IMG/VR virus record: IMGVR_UViG_3300011441_000010 | DNA: 58,222 bases | DNA from: a virus | Strand: one strand, 5' to 3' | Part shown: piece after piece, positions 42,714 to 50,800 of the stretch | Layout: each line of letters starts with the position of its first letter | Numbering within the stretch: the first letter of the stretch is position 1 | Translations under genes and position numbers: made by a program | The notes under the pieces: generated by a model | The model's database searches: none | What the model was told of the DNA's origin: nothing | What the model saw: only the letters and a program-made list of their open reading frames with translations

Positions 42714-43232
42714 ATGTTGAGCAAGCCAATCGGAACCATCGTCGCCGGACTTCTCGGCCTCGTGTTCCTGGGTGGAGCGGACAGCTGCAAGGGCGACGGA
42801 AACTCCGGCGACCCGAAGGACACCAACTATAACAAGGAAGTCACGAAGGCCGCTCCGGCGTCTCCGGGCGAGGAGTGCGCGAAGTTCCCGGATGCCGCCG
42901 TTCCGCCGAACCTCCAGCAGAAGCGGTACATCACGATCTGGACCTGCCTGGAGACCGCGTACGGTCCGTACACGGTGTACTACCACGCGACGGACATCAA
43001 CGGCAATACGCTCGCCTCCACCGAGGAGGCGGTGGTGGAGGTCGCCAAGCCGTTCAACCGGATCATCGGCTACGACACCGGCCAGAAGGTCTCCATCTCG
43101 ATCCAGATCCGTCCGGCTCGCCCGGGGGCTAAGAACGGCTACATCTACGCGAAGGATGGTCCTGCGAACATCAAGTCCGGCCGGATCGACGGCGCATTCC
43201 AGATCCGCATCGACATCAACGCGGCTCGATAA
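42714..43232 (+). CDS. secreted or lipoprotein-like protein (start 42702 or 42714)
   Basis: Signal-like N-terminus MLSKPIGTIVAGLLGLVFLGGADSC with a Cys after the hydrophobic core. Confidence 0.55.
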   Translation: MLSKPIGTIVAGLLGLVFLGGADSCKGDGNSGDPKDTNYNKEVTKAAPASPGEECAKFPDAAVPPNLQQKRYITIWTCLETAYGPYTVYYHATDINGNTLASTEEAVVEVAKPFNRIIGYDTGQKVSISIQIRPARPGAKNGYIYAKDGPANIKSGRIDGAFQIRIDINAAR

Positions 43233-43239
43233 GCAGTCG

Positions 43240-43279
43240 CCCTACCGGGGTAGCGCCAGGATAGGCTGCCCCGGTAGGG
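43240..43279 (+). terminator. intrinsic terminator
   Basis: CCCTACCGGGG (43240-43250) pairs with CCCCGGTAGGG (43269-43279), followed by TTTGCTTT. Confidence 0.7.
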
Positions 43280-43280
43280 T
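43251..43280 (+). promoter_or_regulatory. promoter-like TAGCGC-N18-TAGGGT upstream of tRNA-like gene 1
   Basis: Same -35-like hexamer as the 37351 and 50771 copies. The -10-like ends 12 nt before 43293. Confidence 0.4.
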
Positions 43281-43292
43281 TTGCTTTAGCAA

Positions 43293-43367
43293 GCCCCGGC
43301 AGCTCTACGGGAGCACCGCATTAGATCTCGGGTGCGGATGGGCGCGGTTCGAATCCGTGCCGGGGCA
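43293..43367 (+). tRNA. tRNA-like gene 1 with non-canonical anticodon arm (12-nt loop, or 7-bp stem plus 8-nt loop). Isotype undetermined
   Basis: Hand fold: acceptor GCCCCGG/CCGGGGC, D stem GCTC/GAGC, T arm CGCGG-TTCGAAT-CCGTG, discriminator A. The anticodon stem CCGCA/TGCGG encloses TTAGATCTCGGG. Confidence 0.5.
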
Positions 43368-43533
43368 CGGCAGGTAGGGGAACAGAGGGTCCGAGGCACC
43401 GAGACCGAACCACCCGGCAAGAACGGGTAGGCGGGCGGAGTGGTTTACGGAGACAGCGGGAGTAGCGCTCCCCGCCTTGGCTGTATGTGGCCCGGAGGGC
43501 TGTGGCCAGACAAAACCCCCTACCGCTCAACAA

Positions 43534-43606
43534 GTCTCGGTAGCTCAACGGCAGAGCACCCCCGGATAAGGGGGAAGCGCTGCGGGTTCGAATCCCGCCC
43601 GGGGCA
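43534..43606 (+). tRNA. tRNA-like gene 2 with non-canonical anticodon loop (GAU/Ile-like, but a 6- or 8-nt loop and no U33)
   Basis: Hand fold: acceptor GTCTCGG/CCGGGGC (2 G-U pairs), D arm GCTC-AACGGCA-GAGC, T arm GCGGG-TTCGAAT-CCCGC. The anticodon arm is CCCCC-GGATAA-GGGGG. Confidence 0.55.
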
Positions 43607-43669
43607 CACGATGGCGGTCTACCCGAACCCCTGACTGCCGGGGGCACGTCAGTAGGCGGGAGACCGCCA

Positions 43670-43685
43670 TCCTAGCGTCCTAGGA
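43670..43685. promoter_or_regulatory. 16-bp palindromic operator-like site TCCTAG-CGTC-CTAGGA
   Basis: Third copy of the same architecture, preceded by CA. It overlaps the SD region 8 nt upstream of ATG 43694. Confidence 0.5.
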
Positions 43686-43693
43686 AGGTCCAG

Positions 43694-45751
43694 ATGCACG
43701 CCAAGATCGAGATCATGGGTCAGCGAATGGAACTCGCCACCTCGCACCCGTTCGCGGGTCTGGATGCCGAGATCCCAGGCGCGTACTACTCCGCCCGCAA
43801 GCGCCGGTGGAGTCTCCCCCTCGGGATGGCCGTGTGCCGTAACGTCCGGGAGGTCTTCGGACCGGACTTGGAGATCGGCCCCAAGCTCACCGCGTGGGCT
43901 CGCATGGAGATCGAGCGGGAGCAGTCCCAGCGGGCTCTCGGACGGACCCTTGCGGCCGTGCCGCTACCGGGGGTAGAGGCTAGGTCCCCTAGGCTCGCGC
44001 AGGCGCTCCTGAGCCGCCCCTACCAGACCTCCGGCGCTCGCTTCGTGGCGGACGGCCGATGGACCCTCATCGCCGACACCCCGGGTCTCGGGAAGACCAC
44101 GGAGGCCATCGCGGGCGTCGTGGAGTCCGGCGTCTCCGGCCCGTTCCTCGTGGCTGCTCCGGTGGCGGCGATGAACGACGCGTGGGAGCGGGAGATCATC
44201 GCCCGTCTCGGCGACTCCGCCCGCGTGGCTGTCATCACCGGCTCCAAGACGCAGCGGGAAGCCAAGCTGCACAGGGCTTTCCACGGGGGCTCCCGGGAGA
44301 ACCTGTGGGTCATCACCAACATCGAGATGCTGCGGACGAAGATCTGGTGGGTCTGCCCGGAGTGCGAGCAGAAGTGGGTCGCCTCCGATAAGCCGAAGTC
44401 CACCGTAGTCGACTGCGGTCATAACCCCAACAAGGTGAAGGTCGAGAAGGACCACCAGTTCCCCATCCTGTTCGACGTCCAGTGGGGCGCACTCATCATG
44501 GACGAGTGCCAGCGGATTCTGTTGCGGAACACCGGTAGTAGCACGCAGACCCGGAAGGGCGCGATGCTCCTGGAGATGCTCCCAGAGGGGCTGCGGGTGG
44601 CGCTCTCCGGTACGCCGATGCGCGGTAAGCCGCAACGCCTCTGGGGCGTGCTGAACTGGCTCCGGCCCGACATCTTCAAGGGGTACTGGTCATGGGTCGA
44701 GAGGGCCTGGGACGTCAGCCAGACTGGCTACGGCGGAGCGCGGGTCATCGGTAGGTTTCGCGAGGAGCGCCGGGCAGCCTTCGAGGCAGACCTGGATCGG
44801 TACATGCTCCGCCGGACGAAGCAGGAAGTCTCCCCCGGGCTACCGCCCAAGGCGTACATGGGGACTCCGCTAGAACCGTTGAACCCCAACAGTCCCGTGG
44901 CGGTCTGGCTCCCTATGGAGGACAAGCAGGCTCGGGCGTACCGCGAGATGCTGATGCTATCCGCCACCCAGCTTGACGAGGGTCATCTCAACGCGGTCGG
45001 CATTCTGGCGCAGATAACCCGGATGAAGCAGTTCTCCTCCACGTACGGCCGGATGGAGACGGTGCGTCGCCGGATCACCGGCGAACGCGAGGCATCCCAG
45101 CGCGCCTACCGGAGGGCTCGCGGAGCGCCAGACCTCCCGGATGAACTGTGGGAGGACATCGAGGTCTTCCGGCCGGAGTTCCCCAGCAACAAGTGGGACT
45201 GGCTGGAGCAGTGGCTCCGAGAGCGAAACCTGCTCGGCGAGGATGACGCCGATGAGATGCCCGACACCAAGGTGGTCATAGTCTCGCACTTCACCTCCAT
45301 CCTGAAGCTGATCTCGGATCGGCTCGTGGAGCTGAAGTCCAAGCATGCCATGGTGACCGGCGAGGTTACCGGGGTCGGCCGACAGAGCCGGATCGACAAG
45401 TTCAACGACCCCATCTCGGGCATCAACATCATGCTGCTCAACACAATCGCGGGCGGAGTGGCGCTCACGCTCGATGCGGCCGACGACATGGTGTTCCTGG
45501 ATGAGACGCACGTCCCAGACGATCAGGAGCAGGCTGAGGGGCGGATCGACAACCGGCGTCCCGAGGACAAGATTGTCCAGCGTCGGTACTGGTACCTGAA
45601 GTCCATTGGGTCGATCGATGAGGCGATTGCCCGGAAGAACATGGAGAAGGACGCAGACCAGAAACAGCATCTCGATGGCCGTCGTGGAGTGGAGTACGCT
45701 CGGGAAGTCTTCGCAACCATGCGGGAGTTGGCCGAGAGGGGGAACAAGTGA
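43694..45751 (+). CDS. SNF2-family (SWI2/SNF2) helicase/ATPase with inserted zinc-ribbon
   Basis: Motif I DTPGLGKT, motif II IMDECQRI, an insert CPECEQKW...DCGH, and C-terminal helicase motifs. Confidence 0.85.
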   Translation: MHAKIEIMGQRMELATSHPFAGLDAEIPGAYYSARKRRWSLPLGMAVCRNVREVFGPDLEIGPKLTAWARMEIEREQSQRALGRTLAAVPLPGVEARSPRLAQALLSRPYQTSGARFVADGRWTLIADTPGLGKTTEAIAGVVESGVSGPFLVAAPVAAMNDAWEREIIARLGDSARVAVITGSKTQREAKLHRAFHGGSRENLWVITNIEMLRTKIWWVCPECEQKWVASDKPKSTVVDCGHNPNKVKVEKDHQFPILFDVQWGALIMDECQRILLRNTGSSTQTRKGAMLLEMLPEGLRVALSGTPMRGKPQRLWGVLNWLRPDIFKGYWSWVERAWDVSQTGYGGARVIGRFREERRAAFEADLDRYMLRRTKQEVSPGLPPKAYMGTPLEPLNPNSPVAVWLPMEDKQARAYREMLMLSATQLDEGHLNAVGILAQITRMKQFSSTYGRMETVRRRITGEREASQRAYRRARGAPDLPDELWEDIEVFRPEFPSNKWDWLEQWLRERNLLGEDDADEMPDTKVVIVSHFTSILKLISDRLVELKSKHAMVTGEVTGVGRQSRIDKFNDPISGINIMLLNTIAGGVALTLDAADDMVFLDETHVPDDQEQAEGRIDNRRPEDKIVQRRYWYLKSIGSIDEAIARKNMEKDADQKQHLDGRRGVEYAREVFATMRELAERGNK

Positions 45752-50766: not shown

Positions 50767-50770
50767 GGGG

Positions 50771-50800
50771 TAGCGCCAACCCTTAGACGACGGATAGACT
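50771..50800 (+). promoter_or_regulatory. promoter-like TAGCGC-N18-TAGACT
   Basis: GGGGTAGCGCC context is shared with 37347 and 43247. The -10-like is at 50795-50800. Confidence 0.4.

What the first reader, a model, noticed from the sequence alone, without database searches (positions are those of the whole stretch)
43293..43606. Two promoter-equipped tRNA-like genes whose anticodon loops are both non-canonical
Both elements fold into good cloverleaves by hand: 7-bp acceptor stems, D arms, perfect GTTCGAATC T-loops, discriminator A, and the shared 3' end CCGGGGCA. Neither has a 7-nt anticodon loop.

Element 1 (43293-43367) has stem CCGCA/TGCGG around a 12-nt loop TTAGATCTCGGG, which is canonical length plus 5. 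It can also be drawn as a 7-bp stem with an 8-nt loop. Removing AGATC or GATCT would leave an Arg-type loop (UCG or ACG).

Element 2 (43534-43606) has CCCCC-GGATAA-GGGGG. This looks like an Ile (GAU) loop CUGAUAA with U33 missing or replaced, giving a 6- or 8-nt loop.

A promoter-like motif precedes element 1, so they are probably expressed. Possible explanations include anticodon-nuclease-resistant or decoy tRNAs, since phage tRNAs with altered anticodon loops that evade host tRNA-targeting defences have been described. Others are frameshift-prone tRNAs, processing substrates, or decaying pseudogenes.
Basis: partly seen in the sequence, partly recalled or inferred. Interest (0 to 1): 0.65.

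Follow-up and report, generated by a model that had tools for sequence, protein, structure and literature searches.

The report
Two non-decoding tRNA-shaped phage RNAs
Two tRNA-shaped genes sit in the leader of a soil phage's DNA-replication operon, keep the tRNA body but never a normal anticodon loop, and belong to a wider, unannotated set of such elements in actinobacterial phages, so they probably act as processing signals or small RNAs, not as decoders.

Summary
E1 (43293-43367) and E2 (43534-43606) fold as cloverleaves with a 7-bp acceptor stem, a TTCGAAT T-loop, discriminator A and no encoded CCA. Their "anticodon" loops are 12 nt (or 8 nt) and 6 nt. ARAGORN reaches 7-nt loops only through poor folds.

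They are not decaying pseudogenes.
- **Orthologues.** Related metagenomic phages (helicase 56-68% identical) carry them at the same spot.
- **Conservation.** E1's scaffold is 96% identical to its L098 orthologue; the adjacent helicase gene is 77%. Its anticodon arm differs at 13 of 22 positions, yet the loop stays 12 nt.
- **E2.** Its arm is identical in L017, and all four acceptor changes preserve pairing.
- **Pairing.** Across 18 elements, 98% of stem cells pair and 14 of 21 stem positions show compensated changes. No loop is 7 nt.

The set includes phiC31, phiBT1 and relatives, where the elements are unannotated. Some relatives keep only the acceptor and T arms, and some have no element.

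All lie on the gene strand, between a conserved promoter-like motif and the helicase gene. My best reading is non-decoding tRNA-like RNAs cut out by RNase P and RNase Z, as processing or stability signals or as small RNAs. That step is inferred, not shown.

E1 and the phiC31-type loops carry a 6-nt palindrome at loop positions 3-8, which hints at RNA dimerisation.

The parts
43249..43280 (+). Conserved promoter-like motif GGTAGCGCCA-N18-TAGGGT. It overlaps an inverted repeat, CCCTACCGGGG/CCCCGGTAGGG, at 43241-43280.
   Evidence: The pattern TAGCGCC-N15-19-TAGGGT occurs once in the window against 0 expected. A second, looser copy lies at 50769-50800. The motif is conserved upstream of the same locus in L014, L015, L017 and L095-L102. 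Promoter function is inferred.
43293..43367 (+). E1, a type-A tRNA-like element. Acceptor 43293-99 / 43360-66. D arm 43302-14. Anticodon-arm stem 43316-20 / 43333-37. 12-nt loop 43321-32. T arm 43343-59. Discriminator A at 43367. No encoded CCA.
   Evidence: Sequence and fold. Family model score 65.4 bits. No Rfam tRNA hit and no ARAGORN call on the element alone. Orthologues at L098 1338-1412 and L099 1328-1402 have the same scaffold and a different 12-nt loop.
43323..43328 (+). AGATCT, a 6-nt palindrome at loop positions 3-8 of E1.
   Evidence: The offset is the same as for the palindromes CCCGGG, TCCGGA and CCTAGG in the phiC31-type elements. The palindrome is absent from the E1 orthologues, so its significance for E1 is uncertain.
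43368..43533 (+). Conserved structured spacer module between E1 and E2.
   Evidence: Most aligned columns are identical to a module downstream of the tRNA-like element in L096. It folds into three hairpins with two compensated pairs. No Rfam family matches.
43534..43606 (+). E2, a type-B tRNA-like element. Acceptor 43534-40 / 43599-605. D arm 43543-57. Stem CCCCC/GGGGG 43559-63 / 43570-74. 6-nt loop GGATAA 43564-69. 7-nt variable region. T arm 43582-98. Discriminator A at 43606. No CCA.
   Evidence: Rfam tRNA score 45.5 bits with a 6-nt loop. Clean cloverleaf as the minimum-energy fold. ARAGORN calls Ile(gat) with G33 and an A.G pair. The orthologue L017 409-481 (identical to L113) has the same anticodon arm and pair-preserving acceptor changes.
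43610..43671 (+). Conserved leader hairpin (GATGGCGGTCT ... AGACCGCCATC) enclosing a second hairpin.
   Evidence: Conserved in L098, L099 and L100, with one compensated pair.
43672..43696 (+). Small CCTAG/CTAGG hairpin, Shine-Dalgarno-like AGGAAGG (43682-88) and the ATG of the SNF2 helicase gene (43694-45751).

Best explanation
E1 and E2 are non-decoding, tRNA-shaped RNAs transcribed as part of the 5' leader of the phage's replication operon (SNF2 helicase onward).

**What selection keeps.** It keeps the parts that tRNA-processing enzymes read: the 7-bp acceptor stem, the T arm, discriminator A and the absence of an encoded CCA. It usually keeps the D and 'anticodon' stems as well. The anticodon loop has been given up as a decoding device.

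**How it most likely works (inferred).**
1. Host RNase P cuts at the 5' end of each element.
2. RNase Z cuts after the discriminator, and CCA may then be added.
3. This splits the leader, sets the 5' end of the helicase mRNA, and releases stable tRNA-like small RNAs.

In that respect the elements would resemble plant mitochondrial 't-elements' or mascRNA.

**The variable arm.** It may be a free or display arm. In E1 and the phiC31-type relatives it carries a self-complementary hexamer.

**Shown versus inferred.** Shown: the structure, its conservation, the covariation, the genomic placement, the absence of 7-nt loops and the family distribution. Inferred: transcription, RNase P/Z cleavage and any downstream role.
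For: **Structure.** Cloverleaf folds with loops of 6 nt and 8 or 12 nt.

**Selection.**
- E1 and L098 differ at 2 of 53 scaffold positions but at 13 of 22 anticodon-arm positions; the adjacent helicase genes are 77% identical.
- E2 and L017 differ at 6 of 73 positions. The four acceptor changes all preserve pairing.
- In 18 parsed elements, 362 of 368 stem cells pair and 14 of 21 stem positions show double-sided changes. The discriminator is A in 18 of 18. Loops are 6, 9, 11, 12, 17 or 24 nt, never 7.

**Conserved core.**
- L014 retains only the acceptor and T arms, with compensated T-stem changes.
- L095 and L102 have a single body hairpin.
- L100 and L103 lack the element.

**Placement.**
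- In the window's relatives the elements lie on the gene strand, between the conserved promoter-like motif and the first long gene.
- No hit better than 14.5 bits occurs elsewhere in the window.

**No decoding need.** ATC makes up 702 of 790 Ile codons.

**3' ends.** Every element whose 3' flank was read lacks an encoded CCA. From general knowledge of bacterial tRNA maturation, that is the substrate form for RNase Z.
Against: - There is no expression or cleavage data of any kind.
- A pure processing signal does not explain why loop length stays constant within a type, or why the E2 arm is identical in two diverged phages. With only 16 nt that identity could be chance (about 0.13).
- A processing signal also does not explain the strictly maintained palindromes in the phiC31-type loops. 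These point to an additional, loop-dependent function.
- Two relatives manage without any element, so the element is not essential for expressing the operon.
- E1 deviates from the tRNA core (C8, tiny D loop), which might weaken recognition by some tRNA enzymes.
Confidence: 0.5

Rival explanations
1. Decoys or sponges. The excised tRNA-like RNAs titrate a host factor that reads the tRNA body rather than the anticodon. Candidates are acceptor-end-modifying abortive-infection toxins of the MenT or CapRel type, or tRNA-processing or tRNA-modifying enzymes.
For: The acceptor, T arm and discriminator are the invariant parts, while the anticodon loop is free to vary. Several independent types occupy the same locus, and the same phage lineage carries further copies elsewhere: L152 has 5- and 6-nt loops. 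That pattern would fit an arms-race module. That such toxins exist in Actinobacteria is from memory.
Against: No defence or anti-defence gene is linked to the elements. A decoy for anticodon nucleases is unlikely, because the loops no longer resemble any host anticodon loop. A stoichiometric decoy would need very high expression. Two relatives lack the element.
Confidence: 0.15
2. Unusual decoders. E2 is a tRNA-Ile(GAU) that lacks one of the two loop nucleotides 5' of the anticodon (position 32 or 33). E1 is an 8-nt-loop tRNA. Both would still be charged and would promote frameshifting or other recoding.
For: E2 keeps G34-A35-U36-A37-A38, a complete tRNA core (U8, A14, GG, TTCGAAT) and A73. 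Anticodon-loop variants with fewer or more than seven nucleotides have been linked to frameshifting. PMC5009743 covers the enlarged loops; doublet decoding by 6-nt loops is from memory.
Against: Equivalent elements have loops of 5, 6, 9, 11, 12, 17 and 24 nt, and some have no anticodon arm at all. E1's orthologues share no anticodon-like triplet with it. Neither the U33 turn nor a 7-nt loop is present in any member. The phage's codon usage gives no reason for an extra tRNA-Ile.
Confidence: 0.08
3. Decaying tRNA pseudogenes left over from captured host or phage tRNA genes.
For: Some relatives show deletions of the D and anticodon arms (L014) or loss of the element (L100, L103). E1-type T stems carry a 49:65 mismatch in L098 and L099. 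E1 fails the Rfam tRNA model.
Against: 98% of stem cells pair and 14 of 21 stem positions have compensated changes. The scaffold is 96% identical where the helicase gene is 77%. Loop length is conserved within types (12/12/12, 6/6, 24 in eight elements). Palindromes are maintained through double substitutions.
Confidence: 0.1
4. A DNA-level element. The locus would work as DNA: a recombination hotspot, an origin, or a protein-binding site with the palindrome as operator. The tRNA shape would then be incidental or historical.
For: The locus is mosaic: five or more element types, the spacer module and the leader module are shuffled among relatives. It sits at the head of the replication module. 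A palindrome can equally be a dimeric-protein site.
Against: Compensated changes preserve RNA helices, including G.U pairs that have no meaning in duplex DNA. E2's 2:71 and 4:69 pairs are examples. The strand is always the gene strand. AGATCT is neither enriched nor avoided in the window: 15 copies against 12.9 expected.
Confidence: 0.07

Closest known systems
Canonical phage-encoded tRNAs, including the anticodon-nuclease-evading variants of PMC10264068
   Same: They are carried by a phage. They share the cloverleaf, the T-loop TTCGAAT, discriminator A and the lack of CCA. E2 scores above the Rfam tRNA gathering threshold.
   Different: There is no 7-nt loop and no U33. The loops differ in length and sequence between types. 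The published evasion cases are point substitutions in canonical tRNAs called by ARAGORN and tRNAscan-SE.
tRNA-like processing signals: plant mitochondrial t-elements, the MALAT1 mascRNA, and the tRNA-like parts of murine gammaherpesvirus 68 tRNA-miRNA-encoded RNAs (TMERs). All from memory; the weak Rfam mascRNA hits are.
   Same: The acceptor stem and T arm are retained while the anticodon or D arm is degenerate or lost. The element is embedded in a longer transcript next to another functional RNA or mRNA. Processing by RNase P and RNase Z is expected.
   Different: None of these is from a phage of bacteria. Most members here keep a full four-arm cloverleaf with a well-paired 'anticodon' stem. 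No sequence homology exists: mascRNA model scores are 15.8-17.2 bits against a threshold of 42.5.
Phage P1/P7 C4 antisense RNA and the T4 stable 'species 1 and 2' RNAs (from memory)
   Same: These are small, stable phage RNAs with tRNA-like acceptor/T-arm features. They are matured by RNase P from a longer transcript. For C4, exposed loops carry out the function.
   Different: No conserved complementarity was found between the loops and nearby mRNA. The phage lineages are unrelated and there is no sequence similarity.
The tRNA-like element of Streptomyces phages phiC31, phiBT1, Vash, Heather and relatives
   Same: E2 is 77-81% identical to these elements over 95-100% of its length. The acceptor/D/T scaffold is the same. 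The anticodon loop is non-canonical (9, 17 or 24 nt). A palindrome sits at loop positions 3-8, as in E1.
   Different: The phiC31-type insert is a conserved domain: RA + 6-nt palindrome + a 3-bp hairpin with a GNRA tetraloop + YGCAC. E1 and E2 lack it. The genomic context also differs: these are temperate 41-kb phages and the element lies between gp13 and gp14. None of the four GenBank/RefSeq records whose full feature tables I opened (phiBT1, Heather, Vash, phiC31) annotates the element.
Frameshift-suppressor tRNAs with enlarged anticodon loops
   Same: The anticodon loop is not 7 nt (8 nt in one fold of E1).
   Different: Suppressors carry one extra base next to a recognisable anticodon and remain chargeable decoders. 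Here the orthologues share no anticodon.

Membership tests
Canonical elongator tRNA | 7-nt anticodon loop with U33 closed by a 5-bp stem | tested here: not met
   E1 has a 12-nt loop (or 8 nt) and E2 a 6-nt loop. ARAGORN's 7-nt versions need G33 plus an A.G pair for E2, or borrowed upstream sequence with mismatched stems for E1.
Canonical elongator tRNA | 7-bp acceptor stem, 5-bp T stem with a T-psi-C-type loop, and a discriminator base | tested here: met
Canonical elongator tRNA | Core tertiary nucleotides (U8, A14, G18G19, a D loop of 7 nt or more) and a score above the tRNA covariance-model threshold | tested here: inconclusive
   E2 meets this: U8, D loop AACGGCA, 45.5 bits against a threshold of 29. 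E1 does not: C8, D loop TACGG, and no hit at E<=10.
Canonical elongator tRNA | Aminoacylation and ribosomal decoding | not testable with these tools
   This needs acid-gel northern blots or tRNA-seq on infected cells.
Decaying tRNA pseudogene | Uncompensated mutations accumulating in stems, and conservation no better than neutral flanks | tested here: not met
   362 of 368 stem cells pair and 14 of 21 stem positions are compensated. The scaffold is 96% identical against 77% for the adjacent gene.
tRNA-like processing element (t-element / mascRNA type) | Acceptor stem and T arm conserved while the anticodon or D region is degenerate or dispensable | tested here: met
   Examples are the L014 acceptor/T-arm minihelix, the reduced bodies in L095 and L102, and the variable loops.
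tRNA-like processing element (t-element / mascRNA type) | Embedded in a longer transcript, on the same strand, at an mRNA boundary | tested here: inconclusive
   The position between a conserved promoter-like motif and the helicase start codon, on the gene strand, fits. Transcription itself has not been shown.
tRNA-like processing element (t-element / mascRNA type) | Cleavage by RNase P (5') and RNase Z (3') | not testable with these tools
   The lack of an encoded CCA is compatible. No assay was possible.
Anticodon-nuclease-evading phage tRNA (PMC10264068) | A decoding-competent tRNA with substitutions at the nuclease recognition or cleavage site within the anticodon loop | tested here: not met
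   Loop lengths are 6 and 12 nt. The paper describes substitutions in canonical tRNAs only.
Frameshift-suppressor-type tRNA | One extra loop nucleotide beside a conserved anticodon, shared by orthologues | tested here: not met
   The E1 loop and the L098/L099 loops are unrelated. E2 is shorter than 7 nt, not longer.
Y-RNA-like YrlA / tmRNA / other Rfam families | A score at or above the family's gathering threshold | tested here: not met
   YrlA scores 16.8 bits against 69. No other family matches.
attP-type tRNA fragment of a temperate phage | The 3' part of a host tRNA next to an integrase gene | tested here: not met
   Full cloverleaves are present. No integrase was found among the ORFs checked. 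No species-representative genome in the collection carries the E1 3' half.

The most novel reading that the evidence does not exclude
The tRNA body is a scaffold, and the former anticodon loop has been turned into a display loop. In the phiC31-type elements that loop is a self-complementary hexamer, and possibly in E1 too (UU-AGAUCU-CGGG).

The palindrome is kept by paired substitutions (CCCGGG, TCCGGA, CCTAGG), including at the adjacent central positions. Adjacent bases cannot pair within one molecule. So the RNA would form kissing-loop dimers, as at the HIV-1 dimerisation site, or would pair with identical sites elsewhere.

This would be an undescribed class of dimerising tRNA-mimic RNAs in actinobacterial phages. 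They could have a regulatory or anti-defence role.
Probability: 0.15. Interest if true: 0.8.

Novelty: new variant of a known kind. Interest (0 to 1): 0.6.

Why it matters
**Annotation.** Phage tRNA genes are usually read as codon supplements or, more recently, as nuclease-proof replacements. Here a whole set of phage tRNA-shaped genes has abandoned the 7-nt anticodon loop while staying under clear structural selection. Annotation pipelines either skip them or mislabel them as Ile, Arg, Gly, Thr or Gln tRNAs.

**A new processing route.** If RNase P and RNase Z cut these elements, phage operon leaders would join the few known cases of tRNA-like punctuation of mRNAs.

**A new RNA type.** If the loop is a display or dimerisation device, this would be a new kind of phage small RNA.

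**Testability.** The family includes phiC31, a genetically tractable laboratory phage, so these ideas can be tested directly.

Tried and rejected
**Close relatives in IMG/VR.** The helicase peptide scan and the E1 3' pattern found nothing. The E1 D-arm pattern gave only spurious coding hits. The E2-arm pattern recovered only a duplicate of L017.

**Host origin of E1.** No species-representative genome in the collection contains its T-arm/acceptor 3' half.

**Cis-antisense idea (P1 C4-like).** E1's loop has an 8-nt complement inside the helicase ORF at 43767, matched or beaten in 11 of 300 shuffles. The orthologues and E2 have nothing above chance, so I rejected the idea.

**Restriction-site idea for AGATCT.** There are 15 copies against 12.9 expected, so it is neither avoided nor enriched.

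**Other Rfam families.** None matched in the window or in relatives.

**Sigma-70 promoter and intrinsic terminator scans.** None was found in 43100-43800.

**Integrase or attP reading.** No integrase was found among the 19 distinct ORFs checked.

**ARAGORN's 101-nt Arg fold for E1.** I rejected it. It uses promoter sequence and has mismatched stems, and ARAGORN found no tRNA in L098 or in the isolated L098 and L099 elements.

**Literature.** Five full-text searches found no description of phage tRNA-like genes with expanded or contracted anticodon loops. The phiC31 genome paper is not held.

**Not available.** tRNAscan-SE is not installed here, and RNAcofold cannot model kissing loops.
Full report
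**What the window is.** It is a complete-looking 58,222-nt, 64% GC contig from a JGI soil metagenome (Ga0137465_1000137).
- The likely genes I identified (51 long, high-GC3 ORFs) all lie on the + strand.
- It encodes a primase-polymerase, an SNF2 helicase, a PD-(D/E)XK nuclease and a DNA polymerase III alpha subunit.
- The best matches among isolated phages are actinobacteriophages, at only about 37% helicase identity.
- A sister sample holds an identical copy.

**Checking the observation.**
- E2 folds as a clean cloverleaf with a 6-nt loop. That is both its minimum-energy and its centroid structure.
- E1 folds as a cloverleaf with a 7-bp stem and an 8-nt loop. It can also be drawn with a 5-bp stem and a 12-nt loop.

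Standard tools do not produce ordinary tRNAs.
- ARAGORN's Ile(gat) call for E2 needs an A.G-topped stem and G33.
- ARAGORN's 101-nt Arg(acg) call for E1 borrows GCCCCGG from the upstream promoter/hairpin and has mismatched stems.
- On E1 alone, and on its orthologues, ARAGORN finds nothing.
- Rfam's tRNA model gives E2 45.5 bits, treating the loop as a 6-nt insertion. It does not report E1 even at E<=10.
- E1 also departs from the tRNA core, with C8 and a D loop of 3-5 nt.

**Relatives of the window phage.** A helicase search found a large clade of metagenomic phage contigs of about 55-58 kb. I fetched the region upstream of the helicase gene for about 13 relatives at 56-68% identity.

Their common layout, in order:
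1. The stop codon of the upstream gene.
2. A conserved promoter-like motif, GGTAGCGCCA-N17/18-TAGGGT.
3. In most relatives, a tiny Trp-rich leader ORF followed by a strong GC-rich hairpin.
4. Zero, one or two tRNA-like elements on the gene strand.
5. A structured leader and the ribosome-binding site.
6. The helicase gene, sometimes preceded by a methyltransferase gene.

The promoter-like motif occurs twice in the window, both times intergenic and on the + strand. E1 starts 13 nt after TAGGGT. The window lacks the leader ORF and its hairpin.

**Types of element at this locus.**

| Type | Members | Loop or body |
|---|---|---|
| A | E1, L098, L099 | 12-nt loops |
| B | E2, L017 (= L113) | 6-nt loop GGATAA |
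| C | L097 first element, L101 | 11- and 12-nt loops; G3:U70 with A73 |
| D | L095, L102 | about 65 nt; acceptor, T arm and one hairpin |
| E | L096, L097 second element | about 100 nt |
| Acceptor/T-arm minihelix only | L014 | D and anticodon arms absent |
| Degenerate A-like | L015 | odd middle section |
| None | L100, L103 | no element |

- None of these tRNA-like elements has a canonical anticodon loop.
- The phage of L095 carries two more tRNA-like genes elsewhere, with 6-nt and 5-nt loops.

**Selection.**
- Outside the anticodon arm, E1 and L098 differ at 2 of 53 positions (96% identity). The adjacent helicase genes are 77% identical.
- The anticodon arm differs at 13 of 22 positions, yet the stem stays paired (CCGCA/TGCGG against CCCCC/GGGGG) and the loop stays 12 nt.
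- E2 and L017 differ at 6 of 73 positions. Four of these are in the acceptor stem and all preserve pairing: 3:70 changes from C-G to U-A, and 2:71 and 4:69 change from C-G to U.G.
- I parsed 18 elements by hand (types A-C and the phiC31 group). In these, 362 of 368 stem cells pair and 14 of 21 stem positions show double-sided changes.
- In the same set, the discriminator is A in 18 of 18. Loop lengths are 6, 9, 11, 12, 17 and 24 nt, never 7.
- A covariance model built from these elements finds only E1 and E2 in the window (65 and 75 bits; both were in the model's training alignment). The next best hit scores 14.5 bits.
- In the relatives the same model finds hits on the gene strand.

This pattern rules out neutral decay.

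**The wider family.** E2 is 77-81% identical over nearly its full length to unannotated sequences in Streptomyces phages phiBT1 and Heather. RemusLoopin, Sebastisaurus and Vash give weaker matches of about 71-73%.
- In these phages and in phiC31 itself, the same scaffold carries a 9-nt loop (phiBT1) or a 24-nt insert. No tRNA is annotated there in the records.
- The 24-nt insert has the form RA + hexamer + R + a 3-bp hairpin with a GNRA tetraloop + YGCAC.
- The 4-bp stem covaries: CCGC/GCGG, CCAC/GTGG, CCCC/GGGG and TCCC/GGGA. The inner hairpin covaries too: CGC-GAAA-GCG against CCC-GYAA-GGG.
- Rfam's tRNA model scores these elements at 49-56 bits, with the insert treated as a local insertion.

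**The hexamer is always a palindrome.**
- It is CCCGGG, TCCGGA or CCTAGG. The variants are related by paired substitutions at positions 1/6 and at positions 3/4.
- Positions 3 and 4 are adjacent, so they cannot pair within one molecule.
- I scanned 185,579 species-representative genomes with the hexamer left free. The scan gave three genuine tRNA-like hits, all in Streptomyces and all palindromic.
- The same scan gave 39 spurious hits, which serve as a control. Only one of them was palindromic.
- Other IMG/VR members with the same D arm have loops containing GCTTAAGC, GCGCGC or UGCA. L012 and L140 share one 17-nt loop on different acceptor and T stems.
- E1's loop, UU-AGAUCU-CGGG, has a palindrome at the same offset. 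The chance of that at a fixed position is about 0.02. Its orthologues L098 and L099 have no palindrome, so this remains a lead for E1, not a result.

**Mechanism.** The invariant parts are the ones that RNase P, RNase Z and the CCA-adding enzyme read. This rests on general knowledge of tRNA maturation.
- Those parts are the acceptor stem, the T arm, discriminator A and a 3' flank without CCA.
- The elements sit inside an operon leader on the coding strand.
- The D and anticodon arms can be lost, as in L014 and L095.

The best-supported reading is therefore a tRNA-like processing module. It would be excised from the leader and would yield a stable, non-decoding tRNA-shaped RNA. I compare it with plant mitochondrial t-elements, mascRNA, the tRNA-like parts of murine gammaherpesvirus 68 tRNA-miRNA-encoded RNAs (TMERs), phage P1 C4 RNA and phage T4 species 1 and 2 RNAs; all of these are recalled from memory. 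The conserved loop lengths and the palindromes suggest that the loop has a second function. That function could be dimerisation or display, or acting as a decoy for factors that bind the tRNA body.

**Readings that fit less well.**
- **Decoding.** No member has a 7-nt loop or U33. E1's orthologues share no anticodon with it. ATC makes up 702 of 790 Ile codons, so an extra tRNA-Ile(GAU) has no obvious use.
- **Nuclease evasion.** The published mechanism concerns substitutions in canonical tRNAs (PMC10264068).
- **Cis-antisense.** The loops show no conserved complementarity to nearby mRNA.
- **attP fragment.** I found no integrase and no host tRNA match.

**Other modules in the same intergenic region.**
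- The 166-nt spacer between E1 and E2 closely matches a module in L096 and folds into three hairpins.
- The 60-nt hairpin after E2 is conserved in L098, L099 and L100.
- The region is a mosaic of RNA modules that are shuffled among relatives.

**Novelty.** I found no description of this pattern in five full-text searches. The four public phage records whose full feature tables I opened leave the elements unannotated. I rate it a new variant of a known kind, namely tRNA-like RNAs. The function is unproven, and the family includes the tractable phage phiC31.

Noticed in passing
L098 ~1277-1305, L099, L096, L095, L100, L014, L015, L101 (upstream of the tRNA-like elements); absent from the window: A tiny conserved Trp-rich leader ORF ends in ...K-D-W-x-W-x-stop (MRKSWDWN*, VKGWDWS*, MKDFDWS*, MKDWAWT* and others). 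A strong GC hairpin without a U tail follows it directly. It looks like a leader-peptide attenuator or arrest module placed between the promoter-like motif and the tRNA-like element.
   Followed up: partly
window 50769-50800: A second copy of the promoter-like motif, GGTAGCGCCA-N16-TAGACT. It is also intergenic and on the + strand, and is followed by a hairpin (GTGGGGC...GCCCCAC). No tRNA-like element sits there.
   Followed up: partly
window 43368-43533 and L096 1317-1462: A conserved non-coding module of about 150 nt, predicted to form three hairpins, lies between E1 and E2. In L096 the same module lies between a different tRNA-like element and the helicase gene. No Rfam family matches it.
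   Followed up: partly
phiC31 L094 925-1011; phiBT1 L001 1508-1581; Vash L005 297-383; Heather L002 1501-1587; L010-L013, L140, L203, L232, L240, L247: An unannotated tRNA-like gene occurs in phiC31-like Streptomyces phages and prophages. Its anticodon loop is replaced by RA + a 6-nt palindrome (CCCGGG, TCCGGA or CCTAGG, kept by paired substitutions) + a GNRA hairpin + YGCAC. ARAGORN mislabels some of these as Gly, Thr or '???', and misses others.
   Followed up: partly
L097 35-109 and L101 1412-1487: The type-C elements keep G3:U70 together with A73, the classic alanine identity set, while other acceptor pairs covary. They might be charged with alanine whatever their 11- or 12-nt loop.
   Followed up: no
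L152 (IMG/VR contig of 56,774 nt, apparently the phage of L095), minus strand 557-626 and 353-420: Two further tRNA-like genes lie in another intergenic region of a relative, with a 6-nt loop (UUCAGG) and a 5-nt loop (GCGUA). Rfam tRNA scores are 37.3 and 27.6 bits.
   Followed up: partly
Gordonia phage Morgana L007 (86-159, 603-646, 992-1035, 1900-1962); Streptomyces phage Samy L006 1452-1526; L077 5584-5649; L091 85-153: Reduced, unannotated tRNA-like elements (acceptor stem, T arm and one hairpin, 44-75 nt) occur in other actinophage genomes. This suggests the phenomenon is widespread.
   Followed up: no
IMG/VR loci L117, L120, L124, L128 and others, several of them labelled as giant-virus metagenome-assembled genomes (GVMAG contigs): A large group of tRNA genes with a CTTATAA or CTCATAA anticodon loop (anticodon TAT or CAT) carries a conserved 55-65-nt insert between the D arm and the anticodon arm. 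It is unrelated to this finding and is probably an intron-like feature.
   Followed up: no
window 43241-43280: An 11-bp inverted repeat, CCCTACCGGGG/CCCCGGTAGGG, overlaps the promoter-like motif. It occurs in the window only, and its 3' arm supplies the false acceptor stem in ARAGORN's 101-nt call.
   Followed up: yes
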